Virus record (IMG/VR): IMGVR_UViG_3300010399_000039
Span: 7,220 to 71,219 of that record
Origin: a virus
DNA: 64,000 nucleotides
Direction: 5' to 3' (one strand)
Shown here: positions 13,791-28,054 of the stretch, one piece after another
How the letters are laid out: the number at the start of each line of letters is the position of its first letter
How positions within the stretch are numbered: the stretch's first letter is position 1
Position numbers and translations under genes: made by a program
Notes under the pieces: generated by a model
Seen by the model: the letters and a program-made list of their open reading frames with translations, nothing else
Database searches by the model: none
What the model was told of the DNA's origin: nothing

Positions 13791-13925
13791 ATGAATCCTT
13801 GGGAACTGATCACGATGTTTCAAGATGCAGAAGGTAGCGCAGCGCCACCGTCAGGCACTCCGCTAGTGACCGAAGACGGCACGGCGTTAGTCAGCGAGGA
13901 CGGGACACCCCTAGTAACTGAGTGA
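13791..13925 (+). CDS. 44-aa peptide with LxTEDG repeats
   Basis: Not in ORF track. MNPWELITMFQDAEGSAAPPSGTPLVTEDGTALVSEDGTPLVTE. Confidence 0.65.
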   Translation: MNPWELITMFQDAEGSAAPPSGTPLVTEDGTALVSEDGTPLVTE

Positions 13926-13930
13926 AAGCC

Positions 13931-16900
13931 ATGATGAGCAATAGAAAACTTCGGATTGCCGCCGCGATTATAGCGTGTCTTGCTTTCTGGTCCTTGTGCG
14001 CGTTCGTGGCCGCACAAGTCAAAGTCTCAGCTTTACCGGCCGCAACAGCGGTCACGACTGACGACCTTTTGCTGATAGTGGACGATCCAGCCGGCACAGC
14101 GGCTTCGAAGAAGATCACCGTCGCGAATTTTAAGACATCGATCTTCGCGAGTCCGACTCTGGTCACGCCGACATTGGGAGTGGCGACAGCGACCTCAATC
14201 AATAAAGTGGCCTTCACTGCGCCCGCTACATCCGCAACACTCACCTTGATCAACGGCACGACCGTCACCGGCCCTTCCGCAACTACAACGCTGCCCGGCC
14301 TCTCCCTTGGAAACCTATTCACGACGGGGCAAGCCGTTCAACCTATAACGGACGTGATTTCACTGACAGTCAGACGGAATGGCGCATCGCAGACCTCGAA
14401 CGTCGTCGAGTTCCAGACTGAAGGGAACGCGCTGCTCGCGGGCGTCGATAAGACTGGCGCTATCTTCGCTCCTAAGTTCGGGGTGAACGGGTCGAATCTG
14501 AATACGGTGCCGACCGTCAACGGCGATATCTTTGCTCTGTTGGCAGCAACACAGACCTTCACTAACAAGACTTACGACACTGCTGGAACTGGGAATGTCT
14601 TCAAAATCAACGGGAGCCAGTTCACAAGCATCGGCAGTGGGTTGGATTTAACGGCGGGCGTACTGACCGCGCCTGGCGGTGGTGGTGGGTCGGGCACGGT
14701 TAATTCAGGAACTCAGTATCGGCTTGCCTACTACGCAACGACCGGAACGGCGGTCAGTGGTAATTCGGGCATCGTCACGAACGCCAACAACGATCTGCTA
14801 TTGAGCAATAATCTCTCGCTCGGGTCGTTGACCAACGAAGGACAGGGAATCTATCTCGCATCGTGTTTCACCAACACATCGGCGCTGTATCTGGTCGCCT
14901 CAAACGACGGCAAAACTTTCAACTTCTTAAACAGCAATGATCCGACGACGGGCGCGGTCTATACGCCGGTCAGTCCCTCGATTGTGCGTGATCCTTCAAT
15001 TATGAAAAGCGGCAACCTGTATTGGGTTGCCCATACGAACAACTTTGGCGGTACGACCTTCGACGTGATCAGTTCTCCCGACCTCTCCAACTGGACGCTC
15101 GTTCAGAGCGTTGATATGTCGGCAGTGACGGGTGTCAATCGGGTCTACGCGCCTGAGTGGTTTGTAGATACCGATGCCTCGATCCACATTTTTGTAACAA
15201 CCAGCATTGACACTGGGGTTTCATATCAAATCTACGAGGTTCATCCGACTAATGCCGCGATGACAACTTGGAGCACCCCGGTTGCCATAACCGGCAGCGG
15301 AGTTCCGGTCAGCGCAATCGATCCGTTCGTTATCAAGATCGGTGCGAACTATCTGCTTTGGTTGAGCAATCAACCTACTGACTCGTTCATCGAGGTCTTG
15401 ACCTCAACCAGCTTGACCAGCGGCTACACCGCGCTCCATACGGGCGATTGGAATTCGTGGGGCAACACGATTGAGGGGCCGAACATCGTTCAGACCGGAA
15501 CGAACTCTTATCGACTCTACGTTGATCACTTCCCCTCGCTCGGAATCAAGTATGCTGACTCAACCGATGGCGGCGTGACATGGAGCGCCCTATCAGCCAT
15601 CACCGTTCCCGGCGTGATTGTTCATCCGACCGTCATCAGAATCAGGGACATTGACGCACTGCGAAACATGACTGGCCTGTTCATGGCCCGGAATGCAAGT
15701 GTCAACGGTCCCTTTACGGCTTCAGCGGTCACAACTACGAACGGCTCAGTTGTTTCGGCTTCGCACGTTATCTCAGGAGCGAACCTTTATCTCGGAACTG
15801 GGGCCGATGCTTACCTGATACTTGGTGCTACTTCAACAGACACAATCATTGGCCGGGCGGCGGCGGATAATTTCAGGCTTGGAAAGCTCGCAGCGAATCC
15901 TCCGATTGCTCAGACATTGAGCATGCAGAACGCCAGCGGAACCAACATCGCGGGCGCGGACTTTACGCTTGACGCTTCGCAGGGAACAGGAACGGGTGCG
16001 GGTGGATCGCTGATCCTCAAGGTTGCCCCGGCAGGCTCTACCGGCTCATCATTGAACGCGCTAGCGGCAGCTTTCACAATTCTTTCAACCAAGAAGGCTA
16101 CGTTCGCAGACGATCTAACCGTGAGCGGACTGCTCAAGACGGGTTCAGGGCCAACTACGCTGACCGACTCGGCGGGCAAGATTCTTTCGGCTGCGTTGAA
16201 TACCGTAGGGGTAGCACAGGGCGGGACAAGCCAAACTAGCTTCACTAAGGGCGACATCCTCGCGGCGGCAGGCTCTACTACGCTGAACAAACTCGCAGTT
16301 GGAACAGACGGACAAGTGCTGACCGCTGACGCCGCCTCAACCAATGGAGTGAAGTGGGCTACTGCATCGGGTGGTGGTTCTGGAACGGTCAATAGCGGCA
16401 CTCAGTATCGAGTGGCTTACTACGCGACCACGGGCACTGCGGTCAGCGGAAATGGTTCATTGGTCACGGACGCGAGCGATAACTGGACCCTCTCCAACAA
16501 GCTCGGCGTCGGCATAGCCCCATCGACTAATCGAGCAATGACGCTGATGGATATGTCAGGCGGGGCCACGTACTTCCAGTTCAAACAGGCCAGCACTGCC
16601 GAAACGACCATCGGCGTGGAGAGCAGTTCAAAGCAATTCCTGATCTTCAAAGAAAGCAACAGCACCTACATGTTCATGATCGATCCCGCTAACAACGTGA
16701 AAATAGCGGGAACCGCCGCTCGCGCGACAACCGAAGGAACTAACACGCTGGATATTTTCGATGGAACGGCCCCGGTCGGCACGCTGGCTAACGGCATCTC
16801 GCTCTATTCAACCTCTGGTGAGTTACGGGTAATGGACGCAGCCGGGAACGCAACGTTGCTCTCACCCCATGACCTTACTTCAAACGAATGGATATTTCTG

Positions 16901-17017
16901 AGCAAGAACACCGTCACCGGCAAGGTTCTCCGCATCGACATGGAGCGGCTGATGAAAGCCATCGACGCGAAACTTGGTGGCGGGTTCGTTCGGGAATACG
17001 TCGAAAAAGTACAGTAA
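13931..17017 (+). CDS. tail fibre/spike with internal GH43 beta-propeller and apparent signal peptide
   Basis: N-terminus MMSNRKLRIAAAIIACLAFWSLCAFVAA|Q; KVSALPAAT...SKKITV fibre domain; GH43 motifs RDP, YAPE, IDP, EGP; fibre repeat GTDGQVLTAD...GVKWA. Confidence 0.82.
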   Translation: MMSNRKLRIAAAIIACLAFWSLCAFVAAQVKVSALPAATAVTTDDLLLIVDDPAGTAASKKITVANFKTSIFASPTLVTPTLGVATATSINKVAFTAPATSATLTLINGTTVTGPSATTTLPGLSLGNLFTTGQAVQPITDVISLTVRRNGASQTSNVVEFQTEGNALLAGVDKTGAIFAPKFGVNGSNLNTVPTVNGDIFALLAATQTFTNKTYDTAGTGNVFKINGSQFTSIGSGLDLTAGVLTAPGGGGGSGTVNSGTQYRLAYYATTGTAVSGNSGIVTNANNDLLLSNNLSLGSLTNEGQGIYLASCFTNTSALYLVASNDGKTFNFLNSNDPTTGAVYTPVSPSIVRDPSIMKSGNLYWVAHTNNFGGTTFDVISSPDLSNWTLVQSVDMSAVTGVNRVYAPEWFVDTDASIHIFVTTSIDTGVSYQIYEVHPTNAAMTTWSTPVAITGSGVPVSAIDPFVIKIGANYLLWLSNQPTDSFIEVLTSTSLTSGYTALHTGDWNSWGNTIEGPNIVQTGTNSYRLYVDHFPSLGIKYADSTDGGVTWSALSAITVPGVIVHPTVIRIRDIDALRNMTGLFMARNASVNGPFTASAVTTTNGSVVSASHVISGANLYLGTGADAYLILGATSTDTIIGRAAADNFRLGKLAANPPIAQTLSMQNASGTNIAGADFTLDASQGTGTGAGGSLILKVAPAGSTGSSLNALAAAFTILSTKKATFADDLTVSGLLKTGSGPTTLTDSAGKILSAALNTVGVAQGGTSQTSFTKGDILAAAGSTTLNKLAVGTDGQVLTADAASTNGVKWATASGGGSGTVNSGTQYRVAYYATTGTAVSGNGSLVTDASDNWTLSNKLGVGIAPSTNRAMTLMDMSGGATYFQFKQASTAETTIGVESSSKQFLIFKESNSTYMFMIDPANNVKIAGTAARATTEGTNTLDIFDGTAPVGTLANGISLYSTSGELRVMDAAGNATLLSPHDLTSNEWIFLSKNTVTGKVLRIDMERLMKAIDAKLGGGFVREYVEKVQ
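14681..16453 (+). repeat. duplicated 28-aa linker in fibre (about 14681-14764 and 16370-16453)
   Basis: GGGSGTVNSGTQYR[L/V]AYYATTGTAVSGN occurs twice, with many synonymous differences. Confidence 0.9.
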
Positions 17018-17538
17018 TGAGAAAAGCCTTACTGACAATTACTGTGCTCTTGATCGCGCTTGGCGGCTACTTCGTCGCCCATTCTCAGATCGCGTCTCAT
17101 GCATCTTTTCGTGGGGAGACTTGCTTTCTCGCCGCGGATCAGACGGTCAGCAGCACGACTCTCGCCAGTCTCACCGGCTGCTCTCGCACCTTCTACAGTG
17201 GGCATAAGTATGCGGGAATGGTCGTTCTGTTGGTGTCGGATTCAGTTGCGGCCGAAGGCGTCAAGCTGGACTTCAACGGCGGCTCTGCAACGGTCACGAA
17301 CTTCCGCGCCCACGCGGACGGTCTCGATTCAGCGCTGACGATCAATACGCAAGTCACGGCTATCTCGACCGCGATCACAGCGGCGACCTTCACGGGCTCA
17401 GGGCGAATAACGGTGTACTTCACCTTTGAGCCGAGTGCGGACGGAACGCTGATTCCACGAGTGGCCCAGAATTCACACGTGACAGGCACGCTGACGGTGT
17501 TCAGGGGCAGTTATATGACGGCGGTCGAATGCTTATGA
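17017..17538 (+). CDS. fibre-tip-like beta-sandwich protein with apparent signal peptide
   Basis: MRKALLTITVLLIALGGYFVAHS|Q; C-terminal GTLIPRVAQN...TLTVFRGSY resembles fibre tip domains; TAATG coupling. Confidence 0.7.
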   Translation: MRKALLTITVLLIALGGYFVAHSQIASHASFRGETCFLAADQTVSSTTLASLTGCSRTFYSGHKYAGMVVLLVSDSVAAEGVKLDFNGGSATVTNFRAHADGLDSALTINTQVTAISTAITAATFTGSGRITVYFTFEPSADGTLIPRVAQNSHVTGTLTVFRGSYMTAVECL

Positions 17539-18965
17539 AACGACTCGCTCTATCTACTATCCTCGTTTTGATTCTTCTCCTGTCTGCATCCGCGCAGACG
17601 CCGCAGAATACCAAACGGGTCATCGTCTCGGGCTTGCCGGCCGCCGCCGACAATACAGGAAAGACCTATGTCGTGACCGATTCTTCGACGACCTCGGACT
17701 GTACGGTTGGCGGTGGCTCGCTAAAGGTTCGATGCACGAGCGATGGCACGAATTGGGTCAGCGATACAGCCGACTATGTGCCAAAGACTTTGCAGGTTGC
17801 ATCGAACGCACTCAACGGCGACATCAGCACGGCGACGTTGAAAAGCTCGCTGTCGCTGAATAATGTAGATAACACCGCCGACACCGCAAAGCCCGTCAGT
17901 ACCGCTCAACAGACAGCACTTGACCTGAAGGCCAATCTTGCGGGACCAACCTTCACGGGCACGCCCACACTCCCAACCGGCACGATTACATCGGGTAGTT
18001 TTCTGACGACCGCGATCACGGCTCCCGGTACTCCCGCTGCGGGCAAAGGATCAATCTACGTCGATTCGACCAGCAAGAACCTCTCAGTCAAAGATGATGC
18101 CGGGGTAGTTAAGCATGGCGTCCGCACAAAGGCGGCAGTCTCTAATAGCTTTGTCACGGCGATTGATGATGACGGAACGGTAACGGTTGTCCAGCCCGCC
18201 TTCTCGAATCTCTCGGGCACGGCAACCGCCGCGCAGATTCCCGCCGCGCTCAGTAGTACAACCTCCGTCAATGCAACTACGATTCCGGCCAGCAAAACCT
18301 TGATGGCAACGGACACTTCCGTGCTGGCCGCACAGATGCCCGCGCTTACTGGGGACGTGACGACTTCGGCGGGCGCGGTAGCAACAACAATCGCCAACAG
18401 CGCCGTTACTCGAGGCAAAGCCGACAGCACGGTCAACGGCATCGGTGTAGTCTCGACGGTCTCAGTGAACGGAGTCGCCGCTACCGACACTCAGCTACTT
18501 GAAGTCACGCTTCCAGCGGCTTACCTGAATCGCTCGTCGGCGGTCCTGGACATCAAAGCAAGCGGCACCTGGACCACCGGCACGACCCAGACCCCAACGC
18601 AAACTTTCAAGGTCAAACTCTGCACAGTGTCGGGCTGTGGCTCAGGTACGGTACTGACACTCGTGAGTTGGACGAGCGCGGCGGCGACGGCCAGCACGAC
18701 CCAAACGTGGCTAACAATCTCAACGCTCGGCACCGTAACGACAGGGTCGAGCGGAACCGTGATAGCCCACGGCTTCGCCGACCTTCCGGTGGGCGCATCG
18801 GCCAACACCGCATTCGCGGGTTTCCACGATGTCAACACGGCGGCAAGTTCCGGCATCGACCTGACGGCACAGTTGTTCTTGAATCTCATGTGGAACGTCA
18901 GCACTCAGAGCGGAACAAAGAACAGTGCGATAGGCCACATGCTCAGCATTAAATCGAGGGACTGA
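17535..18965 (+). CDS. tail-fibre-like protein with apparent signal peptide
   Basis: MKRLALSTILVLILLLSASA|Q; LNNVDNTADTAKPVSTAQQTALDLKANLAGPTFTGTP and LTGDVT..AG..ATTIAN fibre motifs. Confidence 0.8.
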   Translation: MKRLALSTILVLILLLSASAQTPQNTKRVIVSGLPAAADNTGKTYVVTDSSTTSDCTVGGGSLKVRCTSDGTNWVSDTADYVPKTLQVASNALNGDISTATLKSSLSLNNVDNTADTAKPVSTAQQTALDLKANLAGPTFTGTPTLPTGTITSGSFLTTAITAPGTPAAGKGSIYVDSTSKNLSVKDDAGVVKHGVRTKAAVSNSFVTAIDDDGTVTVVQPAFSNLSGTATAAQIPAALSSTTSVNATTIPASKTLMATDTSVLAAQMPALTGDVTTSAGAVATTIANSAVTRGKADSTVNGIGVVSTVSVNGVAATDTQLLEVTLPAAYLNRSSAVLDIKASGTWTTGTTQTPTQTFKVKLCTVSGCGSGTVLTLVSWTSAAATASTTQTWLTISTLGTVTTGSSGTVIAHGFADLPVGASANTAFAGFHDVNTAASSGIDLTAQLFLNLMWNVSTQSGTKNSAIGHMLSIKSRD

Positions 18966-19165
18966 TGAAAACACGACTAATACTCATCGCTGTCTTAAGC
19001 CTGCTTGTTCTGACTGCGGCATTCAGACCGGTCCCAACCTGCGAGAGCAGATGTGAGATACTCTACAACGGATGTTTGGCGGGCTATCCCTCGAGCGTCT
19101 GTGAGAACTCATACTGCAACTGCATGCTGCGTTGCACGTCAGAGCCCAATTGCGTACTGCCTTAA
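18965..19165 (+). CDS. secreted Cys-rich peptide (8 Cys)
   Basis: Signal peptide MKTRLILIAVLSLLVLTAA followed by CxxxC-type spacing; TGATG coupling. Confidence 0.65.
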   Translation: MKTRLILIAVLSLLVLTAAFRPVPTCESRCEILYNGCLAGYPSSVCENSYCNCMLRCTSEPNCVLP

Positions 19166-19188
19166 ACGCAAAAAGGGAAAGCAGAAGC

Positions 19189-19611
19189 ATGGATAAAAGC
19201 GTCTGTAAACAGCGGTCCACTTATGATTGTATGCTCGCCTGCGTCGCGATGGCGGTGCAGAAGCCCTATGACGACTTGTGGCCCGAAGAATTTAGAAAGA
19301 AAGTAGAGGACGCGCATGGCACGCATGGTGCAGTCTGCCGGGAAGCCCTTGAGATTGCTGGTCTCAGTATTGATAAGGACTATTGGATTGTCCGATTGCC
19401 AATGGAATGGGCGGCTCATAGTAGTCTCCGACAGCTTCTAAACGGCCGCCGTGCCTTGTTGCAGGTTCCCTCGTTAAACAATTTTGGTGAACAGCACATT
19501 GTGTTTTGGTCAGGCGCAACTTTGCACGACCCGAGCAACAAACAAATCTACAAATGGATTGAGCAGTGCTCAATTCAGAATGTATGGATTTTCAAGGAGA
19601 TGGAGAGTTGA
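19189..19611 (+). CDS. C39-like papain-fold peptidase
   Basis: Q-x5-C in KQRSTYDCMLACVAM, H in QHIVFW, D in HDPS. Confidence 0.65.
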   Translation: MDKSVCKQRSTYDCMLACVAMAVQKPYDDLWPEEFRKKVEDAHGTHGAVCREALEIAGLSIDKDYWIVRLPMEWAAHSSLRQLLNGRRALLQVPSLNNFGEQHIVFWSGATLHDPSNKQIYKWIEQCSIQNVWIFKEMES

Positions 19612-19633
19612 ATAATTCTCCTAAGGGGATTTT

Positions 19634-19879
19634 ATGTTCAACCGAAGACGCATTCTCGCCGCAATCTCACTACTGTTCGGCGGTTCTGTCTCCGTATTTG
19701 CCCAAAGGCGAAAGAGCGGCCCGCCCGATGATGGCGAGGATATTCTACTCGGGCGAAAGACAAGAGAAGTCTGCCCAGTGTGCGGAGACGACGCGCCACA
19801 GAAGGATCACCGCATTGACGGCCTTGTATTCAAGGTCTGTCGTGAATGTGGAACCTTCTACGAGAAGGTGAAGAGATGA
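19634..19879 (+). CDS. Zn-ribbon protein with twin-arginine-like leader
   Basis: MFNRRRILAAISLLFGGSVSVFA; CPVCG...CRECG. Confidence 0.6.
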   Translation: MFNRRRILAAISLLFGGSVSVFAQRRKSGPPDDGEDILLGRKTREVCPVCGDDAPQKDHRIDGLVFKVCRECGTFYEKVKR

Positions 19880-20229
19880 GGATCATTCAGATAGTGCTCG
19901 TTCTACTCTTTCTCGCACTCACGACAGGTGCGCAGGACGGGCCGGTCTATACAATTGAGTTCACTGGCATCACTGCTGACTCGGTAAAGTTCGATGGATT
20001 CTATGACGGGCCGGATCAGGTTGAGCATAAGATCAAGGGCACGCAGAAACTGCCCTACGTTCTTTCTCTCCCGGCCAGTTCGCATATCTTTCTCGATCTC
20101 AAGCCGAACAAGAAGACCTATATGGTTCGTGTCTTTTACAGATCAGGTGAGACGGCGCAATTGCGCAGCACGACTGAGAGTAGGACGAACGAAGGGATTC
20201 ACTTCAATGTTGAGCCTTATGAGCAATGA
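19876..20229 (+). CDS. secreted hypothetical protein
   Basis: MRIIQIVLVLLFLALTTGA|Q signal peptide; ATGA coupling. Confidence 0.62.
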   Translation: MRIIQIVLVLLFLALTTGAQDGPVYTIEFTGITADSVKFDGFYDGPDQVEHKIKGTQKLPYVLSLPASSHIFLDLKPNKKTYMVRVFYRSGETAQLRSTTESRTNEGIHFNVEPYEQ

Positions 20230-20446
20230 CAGCTCTCAAAACGAAGACGCCCTGCGCCAGCTTCTCGCTGAGTCGCGGGCTGAGATCGGCTTAGCGGTGG
20301 GGCGTAAGCAAGAGAAGGCAACGGCGATGCTGTTCGCGGCGAGAGTCGAGCAGATTTGCTTGAAGGGATTAGGTGGAAACCATGACAATCTATTTCGTGA
20401 TGATCGAGAAAGGCAGGCCCGTAGGCGTGGCGCGAGAAGATCGTGA
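20219..20446 (+). CDS. hypothetical protein
   Basis: ATG at 20219 overlaps the end of the previous gene. Confidence 0.4.
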   Translation: MSNDSSQNEDALRQLLAESRAEIGLAVGRKQEKATAMLFAARVEQICLKGLGGNHDNLFRDDRERQARRRGARRS

Positions 20447-20516
20447 ATCCGCAGTCCGGGAATGGGAGCGGCAAGCAGCAGGGCGCGAAGTGGTGATAGT
20501 GGAAGAATGCAGGTAG
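20382..20516 (+). CDS. hypothetical protein (44 aa)
   Basis: MTIYFVMIEKGRPVGVARED...; AGGTGG RBS. Confidence 0.4.
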   Translation: MTIYFVMIEKGRPVGVAREDRESAVREWERQAAGREVVIVEECR

Positions 20517-20519
20517 GCT

Positions 20520-20801
20520 ATGTTTCATTTGAAGGATAACATCTTTTGGGGTCGATTGCGGAACGGCAGCGTTCGTGTATTTCAGTTAAAATCACCGCCG
20601 TCTGATTTCCCCGAGGCGAACACTTCGCTCCATACTGCGAATGTCGTATTTGATCTCGTGATTGACCCGGATGGGTGGGCGTCCATAGTTGCATCTGTCA
20701 GCGCGGGTGGTGAGGGTGACTTACGATTCTTTGCTGCGCGAGAGTTTCACGATAGCACCGGTGAAGTTTCTGTAGTCCAGAAAGGCGCACCCAATGAGTG
20801 A
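20520..20801 (+). CDS. hypothetical protein
   Basis: MFHLKDNIFWGRLRNGSVRV...WASIVASVSAGGE. Confidence 0.6.
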   Translation: MFHLKDNIFWGRLRNGSVRVFQLKSPPSDFPEANTSLHTANVVFDLVIDPDGWASIVASVSAGGEGDLRFFAAREFHDSTGEVSVVQKGAPNE

Positions 20802-20991
20802 CAGCAGCCCTCGATCCGGCGACTGGGACAACATAATGCGCGGCGTGTACGTTGCCGGGGCGTGCGTTATCATCGGCGTCTTTTTGTTCGTGCTGTTCGT
20901 GACCGGCCACGCTGTAGCGGCGATGTGGATCATTATCTCGATCAGTCTGGGCTCACTTGCGGTGTGGGCGCTGCAAGGCAATAAGGATTGA
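20794..20991 (+). CDS. two-TM membrane protein
   Basis: Two hydrophobic segments. Confidence 0.55.
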   Translation: MSDSSPRSGDWDNIMRGVYVAGACVIIGVFLFVLFVTGHAVAAMWIIISISLGSLAVWALQGNKD

Positions 20992-21126
20992 CGATGGCGA
21001 AGACAAAGAAGCCCAAAAAGAAGAGGCCACCGAAGAAGATCAGGTGGTCGAATAAGTAGAAGGGTGAGAAGCTCTCAATGCGCCTGTGGATGACTTGCGG
21101 ACCTCTGGGAGATAGGATGAAAGCTA

Positions 21127-21651
21127 ATGGCAACCGACATTTCAAGGTTCGGTAATAGATATGGAGAACGACGCGCCGATAATGCCAATCTGACCCCTAA
21201 CGAGGAAAGTGACAAACCTCGCATTGAGGCTAAATTGACCAGACAAATCAAAGAGATTGGGCTCGGACCGATTCTAGCAGCGATCTCTATTTTGATCGCC
21301 GCGATTACCCTGACCATTACGTTTACGGAGAAGGCTAATCAGCGCGGATTGATAGACGGGACGGTTCAACAGGCTTTGAAGAATACTGAGTCAAACCGGG
21401 CCGATGATAAGAAGCTCGTTGAGGACGATAAGAAGGCTTTGCTCGATGCGATTCAGAGCATTAAAGGGGATATCGGGCAGGCTCTTGATATCGCCAAACA
21501 GACACGTGCCGATGTGAACACGATGCGCCAGAGTTCGGATCAGCAGATGATCGAGCTTCGACAGCAGGCTCAGGCAAATTGGGCTTGGAGCGGTAAACTT
21601 GAAAGCAGAATCGCGTCGCTGGAAGTGAAGATCGATCGTGCGACACGATAG
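21127..21651 (+). CDS. single-TM coiled-coil protein
   Basis: ILAAISILIAAITLTITF followed by coiled coil. Confidence 0.6.
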   Translation: MATDISRFGNRYGERRADNANLTPNEESDKPRIEAKLTRQIKEIGLGPILAAISILIAAITLTITFTEKANQRGLIDGTVQQALKNTESNRADDKKLVEDDKKALLDAIQSIKGDIGQALDIAKQTRADVNTMRQSSDQQMIELRQQAQANWAWSGKLESRIASLEVKIDRATR

Positions 21652-21662
21652 GAGAAGCGATT

Positions 21663-21887
21663 ATGTCCCCAGGCTTGCTTGATGACGTTATCCTGAAACG
21701 CAAGATTTTAACAGGATACTTTAAGGCCGCGCAGCACGAAGCTGAACAGGCTGAGAAACACGGGATGCTCAAAGACGTGGCCGACCTCGATGCCGAGCTT
21801 CACGACGCCTACCTTGTCTTCAAGGCGAAACTTGAATACGTGGTAGATGAGACGAAGAACCGCGTGACGAAGAAGGTCATTCCGTAG
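21663..21887 (+). CDS. hypothetical protein
   Basis: AGGAG RBS; helical sequence. Confidence 0.5.
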   Translation: MSPGLLDDVILKRKILTGYFKAAQHEAEQAEKHGMLKDVADLDAELHDAYLVFKAKLEYVVDETKNRVTKKVIP

Positions 21888-21968
21888 CAGGAGCCGATGT
21901 GAATGGCGAAGCGGAAAAAGCGCAAACCACAGGAGCGGTAACGTCTTTGATGTGATATAATTAAAGGT

Positions 21969-22610
21969 ATGACTGGTATCTACGAGATTGCGAACCGGCT
22001 GAACGGCAAGCGTTATATCGGCTCTGCTGTATGTTTCAACAAACGGTGGGCTGAACACCGCTCGCTACTGGGGCGTGACAGTCACCATAGCAAGATACTA
22101 CAACAGGCATGGAATAAATACGGTGCGCAGGCATTTGTCTTTCGCGTATTACTGATATGCGCAAAAGAGAACTTACTAATGTTTGAACAGGCATGCTTTG
22201 ACGGATTGCATCCTGAATATAATATCTCACCTACCGCCGGATCGTTACTTGGATATAAGACCTCGGATGAAACTAAGCTGAAGCTATCCAAGAGCTTGGC
22301 TGGCCGTAAGCGCAGTCCTGAGATATGTGCAAAAATCGGCAACGGACACAGAGGTAAAACTATTAGCGCTGAGGCGCGCGCTAAAATATCGGCTGCGAAG
22401 ATCGGTAAAAAGCTAAGCGCGAAGGCGCGGGCAAACATGGCACGTTCCGTCAGAGCCAGAGGCCCGGAGTATCATGCGAAGCTATCTGCGGCCAGAATGG
22501 GTAACAAGAACTCTCTAGGCAGAAAGCATCCACCTGACGTGATTGCAAAGATCTCTGCTGCAAGTAAGGCAATGTGGGCCGCAAGACGTGCGTGCAGCAA
22601 GGCGGCATAA
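21969..22610 (+). CDS. GIY-YIG homing endonuclease with NUMOD3 repeats
   Basis: MTGIYEI.N..NGKRYIGSA...RW.EH, YNISPTAGS and repeated S.E.RAKIS; own extended -10 TGATATAAT just upstream. Confidence 0.92.
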   Translation: MTGIYEIANRLNGKRYIGSAVCFNKRWAEHRSLLGRDSHHSKILQQAWNKYGAQAFVFRVLLICAKENLLMFEQACFDGLHPEYNISPTAGSLLGYKTSDETKLKLSKSLAGRKRSPEICAKIGNGHRGKTISAEARAKISAAKIGKKLSAKARANMARSVRARGPEYHAKLSAARMGNKNSLGRKHPPDVIAKISAASKAMWAARRACSKAA

Positions 22611-22619
22611 TGAGCAAAG

Positions 22620-23267
22620 ATGGCGAAGAAACGCAGAGCACGGAATGGACGTATGCCGGGGCTTGGTGTAGACGCGTTTGGAGGCAGCGTCATTGATCCC
22701 TCAAAGAACGTTAGACAGCTCGCGAAACATGACAGCATCCGTCAAGATGATCTTCGTAAAGCCGAACGTCGATATGTAGGCTCAGAGATTGCGCGCGTGC
22801 GGGAGGTCGCAAACCTCAAGGCTGACCATGTTAAAGAAATCACAGTTATCCATCAGGTTCACGATTACGCGCTGCACAAGGCAGAGGCCGGGCGGCTGGA
22901 TGCTCTTAGAAGCAACGACCGGGAAGACCTGAGGGTTCTGGCAGCGGCGACTACCGCGAAGGCGGAGGCGCTTCAGGTTCAGGTAGCGGCATCGGCAAAG
23001 GCATTGGCCGACACGTTTCAGCAGCAGATGTCGGACGTAATTAAGCGGCTCTCGGCTCTAGAGTTAAGTTCATCTGAGGGCAAAGGAAAGGCAACGGTTG
23101 AATCGCCAATGATGGCTGAGATGGTATCCGAGCTAAAGGCACTACGCCGAGAGCAGTCTGTTGGATCAGGGCAAAAGCAAGGCGCTCTTTCCGTTCGCGA
23201 GATGATTAGCTGGGTACTTCTCACGCTGATAACGCTCTATGCGCTCTATAAGTCGATGAAGCCATGA
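22620..23267 (+). CDS. coiled-coil protein with C-terminal TM helix
   Basis: IDPSKNV N-terminal motif; MISWVLLTLITLYALY at the C-terminus. Confidence 0.6.
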   Translation: MAKKRRARNGRMPGLGVDAFGGSVIDPSKNVRQLAKHDSIRQDDLRKAERRYVGSEIARVREVANLKADHVKEITVIHQVHDYALHKAEAGRLDALRSNDREDLRVLAAATTAKAEALQVQVAASAKALADTFQQQMSDVIKRLSALELSSSEGKGKATVESPMMAEMVSELKALRREQSVGSGQKQGALSVREMISWVLLTLITLYALYKSMKP

Positions 23268-23719
23268 GACACACCATAGGTTTCACTCAAAAATTCACTG
23301 AGCAGGTCGATAGATTTCTTGCCCTGCTTGAAAGATTCGTCAAGGCCAACGAACGGCCCAAAACAACAGGAGCGTTAATCATGTTCAAAGTTAAGGCAGA
23401 TAATCCCGACGTGGTGGCGTCGTTCAGCGAAACCGTGACGGATTCGGAAGGCCACGCGATTAAGGATCAGGCCGTACTCGATTCACTCGTCAAATCTTTC
23501 ACATCCGACAACGCGGACGCGGTAGCAATCACGAAAAACGATGATGGCAGCTACGGCGTCAAGTTCGGTAATCCCGGCGTCGCCGCGCTGAATATCAGCA
23601 TTGCACTTGGAGACGGGACGGTGCTCGGCTCCGGCGTGTTCGGTGTGACCGTAGTCGAAGGTGATCCCGCTGCGGTGACGGACATCAAGTTGAAGCTCGG
23701 CGATCTTGTCGAGGCGTAA
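23264..23719 (+). CDS. Ig-like domain protein
   Basis: TDSEG...FTSDNADAVAI...G.A.LNI beta pattern; alternative start at 23381. Confidence 0.55.
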   Translation: MRHTIGFTQKFTEQVDRFLALLERFVKANERPKTTGALIMFKVKADNPDVVASFSETVTDSEGHAIKDQAVLDSLVKSFTSDNADAVAITKNDDGSYGVKFGNPGVAALNISIALGDGTVLGSGVFGVTVVEGDPAAVTDIKLKLGDLVEA

Positions 23720-23764
23720 CCAATCAGGGGCGGCGTAGAAGTCGCCCTGTTTCAAAGGAACGTT

Positions 23765-23977
23765 ATGACCATACCTCTTTTGATGCTCGCGGCCCCGGCA
23801 TTGCCCGCCGTTCTGGTCTTGCTTTTGAAGATCGTGATCGCTGGCCTGATAGCCTATGCGCTGTTCTGGGCACTCGGAAGGATCGGGCTACCGGAGCCGT
23901 TCAATAAGATTGCCCTAGTGGTCATCGTCCTCGCGATTGCCTACTACGTCATCACGTTACTGCTGGCTTTTGCGTAA
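23765..23977 (+). CDS. small two-TM holin-like protein
   Basis: LFWALGRIGLPEPFNKIALVVIV helical hairpin. Confidence 0.6.
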   Translation: MTIPLLMLAAPALPAVLVLLLKIVIAGLIAYALFWALGRIGLPEPFNKIALVVIVLAIAYYVITLLLAFA

Positions 23978-23984
23978 CGAGAAA

Positions 23985-24067
23985 GGACCGTCGCCGGTCA
24001 TGCTGCGATCAGAGGCGGGCGTCCTGCACCTGCCTCTGATTACTTTCCAAGTGTCCGGCGGCGGCCC
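23985..24067 (+). ncRNA. candidate structured RNA / long irregular hairpin
   Basis: Outer stem GGACCGTCGCCGG/CCGGCGGCGGCCC; inner stem ATCAGAGGCGGG/CCTGCCTCTGAT with G-U pairs. Confidence 0.4.
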
Positions 24068-24103
24068 CCTATTCGAACGTGGCGAAGCTGAGAGAAAAGG
24101 GTA

Positions 24104-24442
24104 ATGGATAAGGCAGCAATCAAGATCGCTCTGACGACCATTGCAAGACAGGCGCTGTCGGCACTGGCGGGCGGCTTAAGCGTCTGGACTTCGAAACGAG
24201 GCCTTGATCTCGGCGGCGAGTTCGCGCTGCTGGCCGGCGCGGTAGCGATCTTCGTGGTGAATACGCTTTGGGGCATCGGAGAACGTTTGCTTCAGAAGTG
24301 GAAGACTAACGCGGCACGGCTCGCCGATCCGAACATGACCCACAAAGAATTGGACGCAGTCGCATCCGAGGTTCCCAAGACGCAACGCATACTGGAAGCG
24401 CTCACCGAACCTAAAACCGAATCGAGCGGGATAGCACGATGA
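24104..24442 (+). CDS. holin-like membrane protein
   Basis: TIARQALSALAGGL..., second TM segment, then a charged tail. Confidence 0.6.
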   Translation: MDKAAIKIALTTIARQALSALAGGLSVWTSKRGLDLGGEFALLAGAVAIFVVNTLWGIGERLLQKWKTNAARLADPNMTHKELDAVASEVPKTQRILEALTEPKTESSGIAR

Positions 24443-25188
24443 CCCTTCAAGACGCACTCGACAGAATAACCGAACGGCTCGACGAAGAGACCACGCCGAT
24501 CTACTGGACTTCGCAGGAATTTGTCGATGCCCTGAACTATGTTCTGCGACTCTTCGCCCTGCTCACGCTCTGGAAAGAAGTTACTGCGAACTTCACTCTC
24601 GTAGCATCGCAATGTTTTCACAATATTCTTTCGCACCCAAGCACGCCGCTCGCGGATTTCATCGTGCCCTTGCGGTTCACCGTTGGTGGGAAGAGGCTCA
24701 AGACCGCAAGCGTTCATCAACTGAATCTGCTGAATCCGTTCTGGACGGTGACGCCAGAAACGGCGGTCCTTGATCTCACCAACACGCTTTCGATCGTGCC
24801 TGAATATTACGCGGTGCTCGGCTGTGATTTGTTGGCGGTCTATCCCCAAGATGACGCAGGAGTAACAGCGCGGCTTACCTATGCGGCTTCCCCGACGCCG
24901 CTTTCACTCTCGAGCTTATCCGCGGTTCTGGACGCGCCACTGGCCTATCACGCTTGCTGTTTGGACTTTGCAATTTTGGTGCTGATGCAGAAGGTAGGCG
25001 GGCAGGAATTCGCCAACGAGATTCCGCGGCTGAAAGTATTTCTGGAAGAGGCGGGAAGACTGGCGGGTATCGTGAGAACGCGGATGATTGCTCAAGGATA
25101 CGAACGCGTGCCGTTCGATCTGACCGCATACGATCAATCAGCGCTGTTCAAGATTCGATTGGCACAGCAGCCGAAGATGGCCGCTTGA
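24439..25188 (+). CDS. adaptor/ring-like protein 2
   Basis: RLDE..PIYWTSQEFVDALN, PEYY, LAVYP, YAASP, YHACCLDFA. Confidence 0.65.
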   Translation: MTLQDALDRITERLDEETTPIYWTSQEFVDALNYVLRLFALLTLWKEVTANFTLVASQCFHNILSHPSTPLADFIVPLRFTVGGKRLKTASVHQLNLLNPFWTVTPETAVLDLTNTLSIVPEYYAVLGCDLLAVYPQDDAGVTARLTYAASPTPLSLSSLSAVLDAPLAYHACCLDFAILVLMQKVGGQEFANEIPRLKVFLEEAGRLAGIVRTRMIAQGYERVPFDLTAYDQSALFKIRLAQQPKMAA

Positions 25189-25264
25189 AGTTGTGTTTTC
25201 GAGCGAGTTGGATTATCCTCGCGGTCAGGTCAGCAAAGAACTTCAGGAGGGAATCGAGGAACTT

Positions 25265-25693
25265 ATGAACCAAGCACTTCAATTTGTGGTCGCAGCCTTC
25301 AACAGAAACCGCACGCTGTTTCTCAGCGTCGTATTTGTCGTTCTGATCGGTGCAGTAATAGTCGTTTGGACGGTCGGCGCTGCGCGTGCCGCATCAACAG
25401 CCGCCGCAGCGGTCGAAGAAATCGTACCAGCGCCAGACCAACAGAAGCCGATCAAGGATCTACTCGCAGAGCAGGCCCAATCTAATCAGGGCTACCAAAA
25501 CAAAATCGATGGCGCGATCCGCACGCTCATGGCACTCACTAAGAATCCGGTGACTGGCGAGATGGGGCTTAAGCCTACGGAATGGCAAGCGACCAGTGAC
25601 GGCAAGGACGGCTTGAAGTTCGTCGCAGTAAAGAAACAACCGAACATCTCAACTGGGGCCGCAACTCAACCGGGAACTCAACCCGACAAATAA
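25265..25693 (+). CDS. membrane-anchored or secreted coiled-coil protein
   Basis: Hydrophobic LFLSVVFVVLIGAVIVVWTVGAARA; GAGG RBS. Confidence 0.6.
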   Translation: MNQALQFVVAAFNRNRTLFLSVVFVVLIGAVIVVWTVGAARAASTAAAAVEEIVPAPDQQKPIKDLLAEQAQSNQGYQNKIDGAIRTLMALTKNPVTGEMGLKPTEWQATSDGKDGLKFVAVKKQPNISTGAATQPGTQPDK

Positions 25694-25708
25694 CACGGAG
25701 GCGCTTTG

Positions 25709-28054
25709 ATGCGAAAACTCCTGTTGCTTCTCGCGGTCCTTGTGGTCGCCTCCGCTTCCTTGCTTACGGCGAGCCGCGCGCGCACGGCTACACCGACCCT
25801 TTCAACCTGCACTTGTTCGACGACAATTTTCGGCACTCAAGGCAACCCGCTTCCCGGCGTTAAGTTCTTCGTTAAGGTTCATTCCTCGGTTGTCAGCGGC
25901 CAACTTGTCCAGCCAGCCAGCTTTAACGTCTCGACAGACGCCGCCGGTATTGCGCGAATCAAGATTGTGCAGGGTGCGAAAGTAACGATATCGAGCGAAC
26001 ACCCTGCGTTTGCGACGCCAGTCACTCGAACCTGGCCCGCCACTTCGACCTGTAGCTTAACGACTCTTTTTGATGTTCCTTTGCCTGCCGCGGTGTTTGG
26101 TCCAGGCACCGTCACGGACAACACGATTCCCAGATGGGACGGGACGACCGGCGCGCTACTTCAGAGCTCAACGGGCGTGATCAGTGACGATGGCGCTTTA
26201 AGCGGAGTCACTATTGCAGGCTCGTTGATTACGTCGGGAACGGTCGCGGCAGCACGGCTTGGCCTGATGACGGGTGACACGGGCGCTGGCGGGGCAAGTG
26301 GCGCTGTACCAACGCCAGCCGCGGGTGACGCCGCGGCAAGCAAGTTCCTTAAAGCTGACGGCACCTGGCAAGTGGTCAGCACGGGCTCTTTTGTAGACCT
26401 GACGACCAATCAAGCCGTTGCTGGCAACAAAACGTTGACCGGGATCACTACTCTCGGCACAGGCACGCACACTGGCGGCAGCATCTTCACTCCTGTCTCG
26501 ACCCCGGAGTTCGTCAGTATCGCTTCTGGCACTTCCGCTACCCCGAGTACAAATGTCGCTCCCGCGATGACCGTGTCGAAGATTTGGAACGGTGCTGCGG
26601 CTGGCGGGGTAGGACTCGTCGCCACGTTCTACGGGACACACGCGGGTGGCGCGGGCGCCGCGGAGATGGTGGACATCTGGGCGCGTCAGACAACAGCGGG
26701 TTCGATCTCGGGGATGTACGTCCGAGCGGTTGGCGCGATTGCCGGTGCGGGGCAGAGTCACTTCGCCGCAGCGTTCTCGATGGAGCAAGACATCACGAAC
26801 GTGGATCGCTCGGTCGCGGAATTCAATATCAACAATCAGACGGGATTCGACGCGGGCGGGGATTACGGCACCGCAGGGAACCGGGCCAATGGGATTGGGA
26901 TTGTCGCGGTTGGAGATAAGAAGAGCACCGTTGCCGTCTATATCGACACACACGGCGGAACGGTTGGAAATTTCTTCACTGGAATAGATTTCAGACCGGG
27001 TTCGGTTGACGCGACAACGCAGAGAGCTATTCGTATTCCCTCACAGACAAGTCTAGTGAGTTGGGCGGTCGGGAACAGCAACGATATCCCTCTCATTCAG
27101 GGCAGCACCGATGGCGTGAATGATACAGTCCGGGTAAGCCCCGCCGGGCGATCAATCGTGCTCGGCAACGGATTTCTGGGAACGACCGGCACGACCGGCT
27201 TTCTGTACATGATGGGCATGGCGGGAGCGCCGAGCGGAGTACCTGTCGCCATAACGGGCGAAGTGCCGATGGTGTACGACACCGTTAATGACTCGTTGAA
27301 GGTCTACAACGGTGGCTCATGGAAAAACGTGGGTACTGGCGGAAGCGGGAACCTAACGGTAGGGACGACCAGTATTACGAGCGGCACGACAACTCGCGTG
27401 TTGTTCGATAACGCAGGAGCCCTTGGAGAATATTCGATTTCAGGAACCGGCAACGTCGCAATGACAGCAGCCCCGAGCTTCACGTCTGGGATGACGCTTA
27501 CACAAGCGCAGGATGGAATCACCAGCCTCACGATCAGCAACACTTCTACGGGCGTGACGGCGGTCGCGGCCATCCTGCTCACCAACAACGCGGGGGCGAA
27601 TGCTGGATTTTTCGGCCTCGCCGGAAGCAACTACACACCTGTTCCGATCTTGCTTGGGCGTCTGTTCTTCGACGCGAACCCGACAACGCAGGGCATCGCT
27701 ATCAACACCGAGAGCGCGCAGCCGATCGTGTTTGGGGTGAGCAGCGCCGAGCGGGGCAGGTTCTCGATACTTGGAGTTTTCAACTCTTTCAAGGGCGGCA
27801 ACGTGCTTTCTGCCGCCACGATCGCGATCACCGGGAATACTTTTCACGTCACCGGCACAACGAACATCACAAGCGTTTCAGGCACGAGCGTCGAAGCGGG
27901 AACGGTTATCACGATCATCTTTGACGATGCGCTGACCTTCACTGACGGATCAAACTTGAAGCTGGCGGGCAACTTCGTGACGACCGCTGACGATACAATT
28001 ACGCTGGTCTACGATGGCTCGAACTGGTATGAGAAGTCGAGGTCGGTGAACTAA
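25709..28054 (+). CDS. tail-fibre-like protein with apparent signal peptide
   Basis: MRKLLLLLAVLVVASASLLTASRARTA; carboxypeptidase-regulatory-like domain; TDNTIPRWDGTTG, GAVPTPAAGD..KFLKADGTW; C-terminal DTITLVYDGSNWYE.SR. Confidence 0.8.
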   Translation: MRKLLLLLAVLVVASASLLTASRARTATPTLSTCTCSTTIFGTQGNPLPGVKFFVKVHSSVVSGQLVQPASFNVSTDAAGIARIKIVQGAKVTISSEHPAFATPVTRTWPATSTCSLTTLFDVPLPAAVFGPGTVTDNTIPRWDGTTGALLQSSTGVISDDGALSGVTIAGSLITSGTVAAARLGLMTGDTGAGGASGAVPTPAAGDAAASKFLKADGTWQVVSTGSFVDLTTNQAVAGNKTLTGITTLGTGTHTGGSIFTPVSTPEFVSIASGTSATPSTNVAPAMTVSKIWNGAAAGGVGLVATFYGTHAGGAGAAEMVDIWARQTTAGSISGMYVRAVGAIAGAGQSHFAAAFSMEQDITNVDRSVAEFNINNQTGFDAGGDYGTAGNRANGIGIVAVGDKKSTVAVYIDTHGGTVGNFFTGIDFRPGSVDATTQRAIRIPSQTSLVSWAVGNSNDIPLIQGSTDGVNDTVRVSPAGRSIVLGNGFLGTTGTTGFLYMMGMAGAPSGVPVAITGEVPMVYDTVNDSLKVYNGGSWKNVGTGGSGNLTVGTTSITSGTTTRVLFDNAGALGEYSISGTGNVAMTAAPSFTSGMTLTQAQDGITSLTISNTSTGVTAVAAILLTNNAGANAGFFGLAGSNYTPVPILLGRLFFDANPTTQGIAINTESAQPIVFGVSSAERGRFSILGVFNSFKGGNVLSAATIAITGNTFHVTGTTNITSVSGTSVEAGTVITIIFDDALTFTDGSNLKLAGNFVTTADDTITLVYDGSNWYEKSRSVN

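What the first reader, a model, noticed from the sequence alone, without database searches (positions are those of the whole stretch)
13931..28054. Tail-fibre-like proteins carry apparent Sec signal peptides: possible export-coupled fibre assembly
Seen: four fibre-region genes (13931, 17017, 17535, 25709) begin with a basic-hydrophobic-small-residue N-terminus (VAA|Q, AHS|Q, ASA|Q, ..RTA). Three continue with typical fibre repeats and 17017 with a tip-like domain. The starts at 17017 and 17535 are fixed by stop-start overlaps and 25709 has an SD, so the leaders are not start-call artefacts. Capsid, head fibre, adaptors and nozzle lack such leaders. Known: tailed-phage fibres normally fold and attach in the cytoplasm. 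Inference: these fibres may be exported and attach to virions at or after lysis, act as released or surface adhesins/depolymerases or receptor blockers, or be membrane-tethered during assembly. This is the best candidate here for an undescribed system.
Basis: partly seen in the sequence, partly recalled or inferred. Interest (0 to 1): 0.85.

Follow-up and report, generated by a model that had tools for sequence, protein, structure and literature searches.

The report
Phage tail fibres carrying export signals
An uncultured 71-kb short-tailed soil phage puts ordinary bacterial secretion signals on all three of its tail-fibre proteins and on a separate fibre-tip protein, so its host-recognition gear is probably made outside the cytoplasm where the rest of the particle is built.

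Summary
Observation confirmed. The window is most of a 71,219-bp phage genome with an SU10-type short tail. The genes at 13931, 17017, 17535 and 25709 each start with a basic, hydrophobic, small-x-small leader, three of them followed by Gln. The starts are sound, and no internal start could give a leaderless form. The closest homologues keep the leader while its sequence drifts. Across four homologue sets, 118 of 402 proteins have such leaders. Those 118 carry more cysteines and far more often an even number, and 79 have Gln after the cut site. Fibre 1's predicted cut site falls exactly where leaderless fibres begin. Fibre 3 lies between two SU10-type adaptor genes. An independent podophage (L027) has the same layout. 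A viral contig (L081) has a leaderless fibre in the slot of fibre 1. Export through Sec is therefore well supported, by sequence only. Whether the exported proteins are the virion's fibres, joined at lysis, is the likeliest reading but untested. This scan has already noted the same pattern on at least eight other genomes. I found it in no paper. The nearest in print are secreted fibre adhesins of Bdellovibrio and unnamed signal-peptide genes of Porphyromonas phages.

The parts
13931..17017 (+). Fibre 1, 1028 aa. Predicted leader is residues 1-28 (nt 13931-14014), cut VAA|Q. The mature N-terminus carries the LP.A...KK.T motif of leaderless fibres. GH43-like core.
17017..17538 (+). Stand-alone tip protein, 173 aa. 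Leader is residues 1-23 (nt 17017-17085), cut AHS|Q. Then a 135-aa beta-sandwich found at the C-terminal end of longer fibres.
17535..18965 (+). Fibre 2, 476 aa. Leader is residues 1-20 (nt 17535-17594), cut ASA|Q. Four cysteines in two close pairs (56/67, 363/368).
25709..28054 (+). Fibre 3, 781 aa. Leader is about residues 1-22 to 1-27, cut site uncertain. GGAGG precedes the start. The widespread C-terminal 100-aa domain is shared with tail fibres.
18965..19165 (+). 66-aa protein with a leader and eight cysteines, directly after fibre 2.
13439..13786 (+). 115-aa leaderless protein before fibre 1. Its homologue also directly precedes the leaderless fibre of viral contig L081.
12534..13457 (+). 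307-aa leaderless protein ahead of the fibre 1 module. A homologue occurs in viral contig L080, which also has leader-bearing fibres.
24439..25188 (+). SU10-type adaptor A (PF24175, 5e-15), two genes before fibre 3.
25193..25693 (+). 166-aa protein with one membrane-spanning stretch (about residues 42-64), between adaptor A and fibre 3.
28503..29120 (+). SU10-type adaptor B (PF24175, 5e-10), after fibre 3.
29578..33063 (+). 1161-aa leaderless virion structural protein (phrog_3287, 6e-17).
11145..12059 (+). 304-aa leaderless right-handed beta-helix protein after the capsid gene. A possible leaderless receptor-binding protein or depolymerase.

Best explanation
The four genes encode the fibre set of an SU10-like short-tailed phage: three fibres and one separate tip domain.

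Proposed mechanism:
1. Each protein is made with a genuine Sec signal peptide.
2. The leader takes it across the inner membrane, probably co-translationally given the Leu/Ile/Val-rich cores.
3. Signal peptidase I removes the leader, exposing Gln in three of the four.
4. The proteins fold and trimerise in the periplasm, in part with disulfide bonds.
5. The head, adaptors and tail core are built in the cytoplasm.
6. The two sets meet only when the holin opens the inner membrane. The mature fibre N-termini, which equal the N-termini of leaderless fibres, then dock on the particle.

Shown by sequence: the leaders, their conservation, the register of the cut site, the gene positions.
Inferred: export, cleavage, disulfides, docking at lysis.
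For: 1. Leaders are present with sound starts, and no internal start could give a leaderless form.

2. The closest homologues keep the leader while its sequence drifts.
- Fibre 2: 3 of 3 near-full-length relatives keep it (P0006, P0007, P0011), with A18, A20 and Q21 invariant.
- Fibre 3: P0127, P0130 and P0132 keep it.
- Tip: P0396 and P0397 keep it.

3. Family-wide figures, 118 leader-like against 284 leaderless homologues:
- Cys per 100 aa is 0.83 against 0.30 (Mann-Whitney p = 1.5e-19).
- An even Cys count among those with any Cys is 83 of 105 against 78 of 184.
- A small-x-small site followed by Gln occurs in 79 of 118.
- In the tip family the C36/C55 pair occurs in 5 of 7 leader-like members and 0 of 8 leaderless ones (read by eye).

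4. Fibre 1's leader is a pure N-terminal extension. Its cut site aligns with the Met of nine leaderless fibres.

5. Virion position:
- Fibre 3 lies between two PF24175 SU10 adaptors. In SU10 the adaptor docks the long fibres (PMC9509320, passages).
- L027, an independent podophage, has terminase, P22-type portal, SU10 adaptor (3e-25), one small gene, then a leader-bearing fibre, then connector and virion genes.
- L081 has an SU10 adaptor, a homologue of the window's 115-aa gene, then a leaderless fibre with the same tip domain.

6. L018, a 76-kb contig that shares the giant internal protein, has seven consecutive leader-bearing genes in the same place.

7. Of 16 IMG/VR viral contigs with the tip domain, 7 carry convincing leaders.

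8. In the AF2 model of the tip protein (pLDDT 83.7), the leader is a lone helix (residues 2-22), joined by a floppy linker to a beta-sandwich.
Against: - No trained predictor and no experiment was available. Every leader call is heuristic.
- This phage's own mature proteins have 1, 3, 4 and 3 cysteines. Only fibre 2 shows the even-number signature.
- Fibre 3's cut site is unclear and has no Gln.
- A leaderless beta-helix protein and an unassigned 577-aa protein could be the virion's receptor binders. The leader-bearing proteins are therefore not needed to explain adsorption.
- Similar leader-bearing fibre-like proteins also occur in an apparently bacterial setting: L034 sits beside asparagine-synthase-like and glycosyltransferase-like genes (read by eye).
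- Bdellovibrio surface adhesins are also leader-bearing fibres.
- Attachment after export would suffer dilution at lysis.
- Fibre 3 matches no PHROG or Pfam family.
- I did not test the 'nozzle' label of the 1161-aa protein.
Confidence: 0.4

Rival explanations
1. The proteins are exported and cleaved but are not virion parts. They act on the infected cell's envelope or after release. Possible roles: receptor blockers that stop superinfection and keep progeny from sticking to debris, free depolymerases (the GH43 core of fibre 1), or cell-surface adhesins like the Bdellovibrio MAT fibres.
For: - All 21 MAT fibres of Bdellovibrio have a signal peptide and lie on the cell surface. 13 of them end in the phage S74 chaperone domain (PMC10769870, passages).
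- The tip model's Foldseek matches include the MAT tips Bd1399 and Bd2734.
- Leader-bearing homologues occur in a bacterial-looking locus, L034.
- A leaderless beta-helix protein is available as a virion receptor binder.
- Matrishin 2023 reads Q-rule signal-peptide genes of Porphyromonas phages as envelope modifiers.
Against: - About 7 kb, a tenth of the genome, sits inside the virion module.
- Fibre 3 lies between the two adaptor genes, and L027 has the same layout.
- A leaderless fibre fills the same slot in L081.
- The mature N-terminus of fibre 1 equals that of leaderless fibres.
- Foldseek TM-scores to the MAT tips are low, 0.21-0.36.
Confidence: 0.25
2. The leader is not cleaved. It works as a signal anchor that holds the fibre on the periplasmic face of the inner membrane until lysis or membrane depolarisation frees it, as with SAR endolysins. 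Alternatively it holds fibres at a membrane-bound assembly site together with the small membrane proteins around fibre 3.
For: - The uncharged stretches are long: 17-20 residues in fibre 1, the tip and fibre 3.
- Five small membrane proteins flank fibre 3: 23765, 24104, 25193, 28066 and 28278.
- Fibre 3 has no clear cut site.
Against: - The cores are Leu/Ile/Val-rich. The best 9-residue Kyte-Doolittle mean is 3.0-3.7. By recall, SAR domains are Gly/Ala/Ser-rich.
- Small-x-small followed by Gln is conserved: 79 of 118 family-wide, and A18, A20 and Q21 are invariant in fibre 2's relatives. That makes little sense without cleavage.
- The cut site is in register with the start of leaderless fibres.
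Confidence: 0.15
3. The proteins are not exported in any useful amount. Fibres fold and join the particle in the cytoplasm. The hydrophobic N-terminus serves another purpose, such as a docking helix, or is removed by a phage protease.
For: - This is the textbook route for tailed phages.
- Matrishin 2023 proposes prohead-protease removal for signal-peptide-like N-termini of capsid proteins.
- This phage's own cysteine counts are mostly odd.
Against: - Such strongly hydrophobic leaders with a basic n-region are the kind the Sec/SRP route takes up (established knowledge).
- Gln at +1 matches the leaders I saw in a sample of Acidobacteriota genomes and the published Q-rule.
- Cysteines are enriched and even in number in leader-bearing relatives.
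- No internal start exists for a leaderless isoform.
Confidence: 0.15
4. Artefact: wrong start codons or chance hydrophobic N-termini.
For: 13931 has no clear SD.
Against: - Stop-start overlaps at 17017 and 17535, and an SD at 25709.
- Leaders are conserved in homologues from other contigs.
- 4 of 4 fibre-type genes against 11 of 101 others.
Confidence: 0.03

Closest known systems
Leaderless tail fibres with the same modules: P0282, P0338, P0379, P0291, P0301, P0346, P0358, P0371 and P0196 (N-terminal motif), and the 349-aa fibre of viral contig L081 (tip domain)
   Same: They share the N-terminal LP.A...K.T motif, or the C-terminal tip domain. The L081 fibre sits in the same gene slot, after a homologue of the 115-aa gene and near an SU10-type adaptor.
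   Different: They start at the point where the window's proteins are predicted to be cut, so they have no leader. On the tip-domain tree leader-bearing and leaderless forms are interleaved: 9 changes against a shuffled mean of 10.1, over 30 rows with P0408 left out.
Long and short tail fibres of coliphage SU10 (gp12, gp13, gp16), which dock on adaptor gp11 and nozzle gp17 (PMC9509320, passages read)
   Same: The window has two PF24175 adaptor homologues with fibre 3 between them and a large tail protein after them.
   Different: I detected no sequence similarity of the fibres to SU10 fibres. The passages I read from the SU10 paper mention no signal peptides. The window has two adaptor paralogues.
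Bdellovibrio bacteriovorus MAT (mosaic adhesive trimer) fibres (PMC10769870, passages read)
   Same: They are fibre proteins of phage type carrying a signal peptide, with swappable tips. This shows that such fibres can work after export. The tip model matches the Bd1399 and Bd2734 tips weakly.
   Different: They are chromosomal genes of a predator bacterium and sit on its own surface. They share a 130-aa N-domain that I could not compare. The window's proteins lie in a phage virion module and have three different N-domains.
Signal-peptide genes of Porphyromonas gingivalis phages that follow the Q-rule (Matrishin 2023, PMC10367356, passages read)
   Same: They are phage genes with host-type Sec leaders that expose Gln.
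   Different: There they are five genes of unknown function, read as envelope modifiers. 'Tail fiber' occurs 0 times in the main text. The gene list is in a supplement I could not open.
Receptor-binding protein pIII of filamentous Ff phages (recalled, no call)
   Same: A receptor-binding protein made with a Sec leader, disulfide-bonded in the periplasm, and joined to the particle outside the cytoplasm.
   Different: Ff phages assemble by extrusion through the envelope without lysis. Here the particle is a tailed, DNA-packaging capsid built in the cytoplasm.

Membership tests
Sec / signal peptidase I signal peptide | Basic n-region, a hydrophobic h-region of about 10-20 residues, and small residues at -3 and -1 | tested here: met
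   All four have K/R in the first 3-8 residues and a hydrophobic core (Kyte-Doolittle 3.0-3.7). Three have a clear small-x-small site: VAA, AHS, ASA. Fibre 3's site is ambiguous.
Sec / signal peptidase I signal peptide | Leader kept in relatives while its sequence drifts | tested here: met
   A18, A20 and Q21 are invariant in 4 of 4 fibre 2 relatives. P0127, P0130, P0132, P0396 and P0397 keep leaders.
Sec / signal peptidase I signal peptide | Score from a trained predictor (SignalP, DeepTMHMM) and proof of cleavage | not testable with these tools
   No such tool was available and no protein data exist.
Q-rule substrates (Gln at +1, PMC5837995) | Gln directly after the cut site | tested here: met
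   Met in 3 of the 4 window proteins, and in 79 of 118 leader-like homologues. The abstract calls the rule specific to Bacteroidetes. A rough sample of Acidobacteriota loci also showed it: 19 of 63 flagged ORFs.
Tailed-phage tail fibre or receptor-binding protein | Homology to known fibre or tail families | tested here: met
   Fibre 1 matches phrog_18920 (2e-29) and fibre 2 phrog_24919 (5e-9). Fibre 1's core matches tail proteins of Propionibacterium phages at 32% identity. Fibre 3's C-terminus matches the Alteromonas phage XX1924 tail fiber protein. Fibre 3 and the tip protein match no library family.
Tailed-phage tail fibre or receptor-binding protein | Gene in the virion module next to the adaptor or tail core | tested here: met
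   Window, L027 and L081.
Tailed-phage tail fibre or receptor-binding protein | Present in the particle, docked on the tail | not testable with these tools
   No virion data exist. The one docking prediction gave no verdict (see Tried and rejected).
SU10-like podovirus tail | Adaptor of family PF24175 scoring above the curated cut-off | tested here: met
   56.9 and 40.6 bits against a cut-off of 27.
Bdellovibrio MAT family | Conserved beta-rich N-domain of about 130 aa right after the signal peptide | not tested
   No MAT sequence was fetched. The window's three fibres have three different N-domains.
Bdellovibrio MAT family | Chromosomal gene of the bacterium, with the protein on its own surface | tested here: not met
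   The genes lie in a 71-kb phage genome between capsid and tail genes.
SAR (signal-anchor-release) domain | Weakly hydrophobic Gly/Ala/Ser-rich helix without a cut site (definition recalled) | tested here: inconclusive
   The cores are Leu/Ile/Val-rich and three have cut sites. Fibre 3 has none that is clear.

The most novel reading that the evidence does not exclude
Tail assembly in this phage, and in a wide range of uncultured soil and freshwater phages, is split across the inner membrane. The DNA-filled head and tail core are built in the cytoplasm. The whole fibre set is exported by Sec, trimmed, and oxidised in the periplasm. The two halves join in the short interval after the holin opens the inner membrane. 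Leader-bearing and leaderless fibres draw on the same pool of domains, so phages switch between the two routes easily.
Probability: 0.33. Interest if true: 0.85.

Novelty: new variant of a known kind. Interest (0 to 1): 0.64.

Why it matters
Textbook tailed phages build the whole particle in the cytoplasm. If fibres mature in the periplasm, three things follow:
- Host-recognition proteins of many environmental phages would be disulfide-bonded, N-terminally blocked, and possibly modified by host periplasmic enzymes. That bears on how stable they are and on how to express them for host-range work.
- Lysis timing and fibre attachment would be coupled.
- Annotation pipelines that use signal peptides to sort 'host-interaction' genes from 'structural' genes would misfile fibres.

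Roughly 20 to 45% of the listed homologues in each family carry a leader, so this is not a curiosity of one genome.

Tried and rejected
Host assignment:
- The capsid protein found nothing in 401 Acidobacteriota genomes. The tally includes the unpublished genome G006.
- It also found nothing in the Thermoanaerobaculia MAG behind L012.
- The capsid search of viral contigs found no relative.
- There are no tRNA genes. The host stays unknown.

Close relatives among cultured phages:
- The capsid is at most 34% identical to any record.
- Fibre 2 shares only a short repeat with Rhizobium and Gordonia phages.

Docking test:
- I sent adaptor A in 2 copies with fibre 3 residues 28-150 in 3 copies to complex prediction.
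- It gave no verdict (score 0.00, controls not run). It says nothing either way.

Paralogy:
- BLASTP of the two adaptors, of the 307-aa protein against adaptor A, and of the 115-aa against the 166-aa protein showed no similarity.
- The 'three adaptor' idea therefore rests on Pfam for two proteins only.

Frameshift fusion of the 44-aa ORF (13791-13925) to fibre 1:
- Rejected. A stop at 13919-13921 closes the fibre frame.

Lipoprotein reading of fibre 1 (IIAC at residues 13-16):
- Rejected. The hydrophobic stretch runs on for 12 more residues.

PHROGs:
- None of the nine L018 proteins matched a family.

Atlas:
- The 577-aa protein got only low scores.

Literature:
- Five searches found no paper that describes Sec leaders on fibres of tailed phages.
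- Passages were read in PMC6199706, PMC3338817, PMC5776456 and the bioRxiv Bacteroides uniformis phage preprint. None settled it.
- In PMC5776456, Figure 3 marks ORFs with signal peptides and proteins found by mass spectrometry, but figures are not held.
- In PMC10367356 the gene list is in Supplementary Data 4, which I could not open. Either could hold a case in print.

Full report
WHAT THE WINDOW IS

The window is bases 7220-71219 of a single 71,219-bp record. All sizeable genes lie on the + strand. It is a tailed phage.
- Large terminase at 2175-3974 (phrog_38, 2e-17) and major head protein at 10108-11043 (phrog_371, 2e-16).
- Two proteins of the SU10 adaptor family PF24175: 24439-25188 (5e-15) and 28503-29120 (5e-10).
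- A 1161-aa virion structural protein at 29578-33063 (phrog_3287).
- A 3162-aa protein at 37656-47144.
- No close cultured relative. The capsid is at most 34% identical to any phage record.

In coliphage SU10 the adaptor ring docks six long fibres and the nozzle docks six short ones (PMC9509320, passages).

THE OBSERVATION

- Two starts are fixed by stop-start overlaps. One has GGAGG upstream.
- None has an in-frame internal start with a ribosome-binding site that could give a leaderless form.
- A simple rule asks for an uncharged run of at least 10 residues near the N-terminus, a hydrophobic core and a net positive start. It flags 14 of 104 picked ORFs.
- With the 173-aa gene, which my ORF picker had dropped, the count is 15 of 105. 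All four fibre-type genes are among them (p about 3e-4, my arithmetic).
- The other eleven are small membrane proteins, a lipobox protein (49385), a signal-anchor protein (47195), an 8-Cys mini-protein (18965) and a 188-aa secreted protein (48344).
- Terminase, capsid, adaptors and the large tail protein are not flagged.

FIBRE NATURE

- Fibre 1 matches a PHROG tail-protein family and has a GH43-like core. That core is 32% identical to tail proteins of Propionibacterium phages.
- Fibre 2 matches a PHROG tail-fibre family.
- Fibre 3 matches no library family. Its last 100 residues form a very widespread domain, also found in a tail fiber protein of Alteromonas phage XX1924.
- The 173-aa protein is a leader plus a 135-aa domain that closes longer fibre-like proteins.
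- Its AF2 model (pLDDT 83.7) has a lone helix at residues 2-22, a floppy linker at 24-30 and a beta-sandwich.
- Foldseek matches are weak (TM 0.2-0.46). They point to TNF-like jelly rolls, the short-fibre domain of cyanophage A-1(L) and tips of Bdellovibrio MAT fibres.

ARE THE LEADERS REAL EXPORT SIGNALS? FOUR SEQUENCE TESTS

1. Conservation.
- The three near-full-length relatives of fibre 2 (61, 48 and 53% identity) all keep a leader. Its core differs among them, but A18, A20 and Q21 are invariant.
- Relatives of fibre 3 that share its N-domain keep one too: P0127, P0130 and P0132.
- So do the closest relatives of the tip protein, P0396 and P0397.

2. Breadth. The rule flags:
- 20 of 119 listed relatives of fibre 2;
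- 65 of 149 of fibre 3;
- 27 of 120 of fibre 1's N-terminal third;
- 6 of 14 of the tip protein.
These are only the rows the tools listed. The rule misses some obvious leaders (for example P0280).

3. Cysteines. For the 118 flagged against the 284 unflagged proteins:
- Cys per 100 aa is 0.83 against 0.30 (p = 1.5e-19).
- Among proteins with any cysteine, the count is even in 83 of 105 against 78 of 184.
- In the tip family a Cys pair (C36/C55) occurs in 5 of 7 flagged and 0 of 8 unflagged members (by eye).
- This is what disulfide formation outside the cytoplasm predicts.
- Against this: the window's own mature proteins have 1, 3, 4 and 3 cysteines, so only fibre 2 shows the signature.

4. Cut site.
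- 79 of the 118 flagged proteins have a small-x-small site followed by Gln. So do three of the four window proteins.
- Gln at +1 is the published Q-rule. The abstract calls it specific to Bacteroidetes (PMC5837995).
- A rough sample of 19 Acidobacteriota stretches also showed many A-x-A|Q leaders: 19 of 63 flagged ORFs, uncurated.
- The rule therefore does not name the host.
- In fibre 1 the predicted cut aligns exactly with the initiator Met of nine leaderless fibres that share its N-terminal motif. P0394 is a second leader-bearing case.

ARE THEY VIRION PARTS?

For:
- Fibre 3 lies between the two adaptor genes.
- L027, a 24-kb contig, carries terminase, a P22-type portal (1e-80), an SU10 adaptor (3e-25), one small gene and then a leader-bearing fibre. 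A head-closure protein and virion proteins follow.
- L081, a 59.9-kb viral contig, has an SU10 adaptor (4e-7) and a 121-aa homologue of the window's 115-aa gene (35% identity, 1.5e-7). Directly after these comes a leaderless fibre ending in the same tip domain. The same slot is thus filled with and without a leader.
- L018, a 76-kb contig that shares the giant protein, has seven consecutive leader-bearing genes just upstream of it.
- L039, L046, L049 and L080 also show runs of leader-bearing large genes.
- Of 16 IMG/VR contigs with the tip domain, the rule flagged nine. I accept seven and reject two as internal and unconvincing. Seven are leaderless.
- Among 34 distinct complete ORFs from the metagenome and genome scans, I read 17 as leader-bearing by eye.
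- On a tree of the tip domain, leader-bearing and leaderless forms are interleaved: 30 rows with P0408 left out, 9 changes, shuffled mean 10.1. Both kinds draw on one pool of domains.

Against:
- The 304-aa protein after the capsid gene is a leaderless right-handed beta-helix (feature score 0.99, TM 0.91). It could bind the receptor.
- The 577-aa protein is unassigned.
- L034 looks bacterial.
- All 21 Bdellovibrio MAT fibres have signal peptides and sit on the cell surface (PMC10769870). An exported fibre therefore need not be a virion part.

MECHANISM I COMMIT TO (0.4)

Sec export, cleavage by signal peptidase I, folding in the periplasm, then docking on cytoplasm-built particles once the holin opens the inner membrane. 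Export itself I put near 0.75.

Rivals:
- exported but not virion parts (0.25);
- uncleaved anchor or membrane-bound assembly (0.15);
- no useful export (0.15);
- artefact (0.03).

The cluster of small membrane proteins around fibre 3 is unexplained. It fits the anchor idea best.

WHAT IS KNOWN

- Five literature searches found no description of Sec leaders on fibres of tailed phages.
- Nearest in print: Matrishin 2023, on unnamed Q-rule genes of Porphyromonas phages, with 'tail fiber' absent from the main text. Also the MAT fibres.
- From recall: pIII of filamentous phages.
- A supplement and a figure that I could not see might change this.

WITHIN THIS SCAN

The pattern is not new. One search lists follow-ups on at least eight other genomes with the same reading. 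Later checks priced the bold reading at 9 to 30 in 100. I took two things from them: the lead to Matrishin 2023, which I checked, and the knowledge that the claim is recurrent.

What this window adds:
- the SU10-type adaptor context;
- the same-slot comparison with L081;
- the register of the cut site with leaderless N-termini;
- the MAT fibres as the nearest published analogue.

Noticed in passing
window 23765-23977, 24104-24442, 25193-25693, 28066-28281, 28278-28502: Five small proteins with one or two membrane-spanning stretches surround fibre 3 and adaptor A. One is a 166-aa single-pass protein between the adaptor and the fibre. This is unusual inside a tail module. They could be lysis proteins or helpers of exported fibres.
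   Followed up: partly
window 11145-12059: A leaderless 304-aa right-handed beta-helix (pectate-lyase-like) protein lies directly after the capsid gene. It may be a head- or neck-borne depolymerase.
   Followed up: partly
L054-L073 (L057 excluded): Many clear signal peptides in a small sample of Acidobacteriota genomes end in A-x-A followed by Gln, although the Q-rule abstract calls the rule specific to Bacteroidetes. The count is rough: 19 of 63 flagged, uncurated ORFs.
   Followed up: partly
window 13791-13925; L004 near 5050: A 44-aa ORF with three L/V-x-T/S-E-D-G units ends 5 nt before fibre 1's start. A similar LLLEDG..LLENG pair closes an ORF in viral contig L004. A stop at 13919-13921 excludes fusion to fibre 1 by frameshift.
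   Followed up: partly
L018 362-11194: Seven consecutive genes with signal-peptide-like starts lie on a 76-kb contig, just upstream of a 2050-aa protein related to the window's 3162-aa protein. None of them matches a PHROG family.
   Followed up: partly
window 18965-19165; L074 8452-8766: A small leader-bearing protein follows a leader-bearing fibre in both places. It is 66 aa with eight cysteines in the window and 104 aa in L074.
   Followed up: no
window 47195-48004, 48344-48910, 49385-49843: A signal-anchor protein, a secreted 188-aa protein and a lipobox protein (LTAC) lie close together. The first and last could be a spanin pair.
   Followed up: no
window 21969-22610: A GIY-YIG / NUMOD3 homing endonuclease lies between the two fibre modules.
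   Followed up: no
L049 / L050 (one 105.9-kb contig): The same 2156-aa leader-bearing protein was returned twice from one contig at two ranges. Two more leader-bearing genes (530 and 1216 aa) follow it.
   Followed up: no
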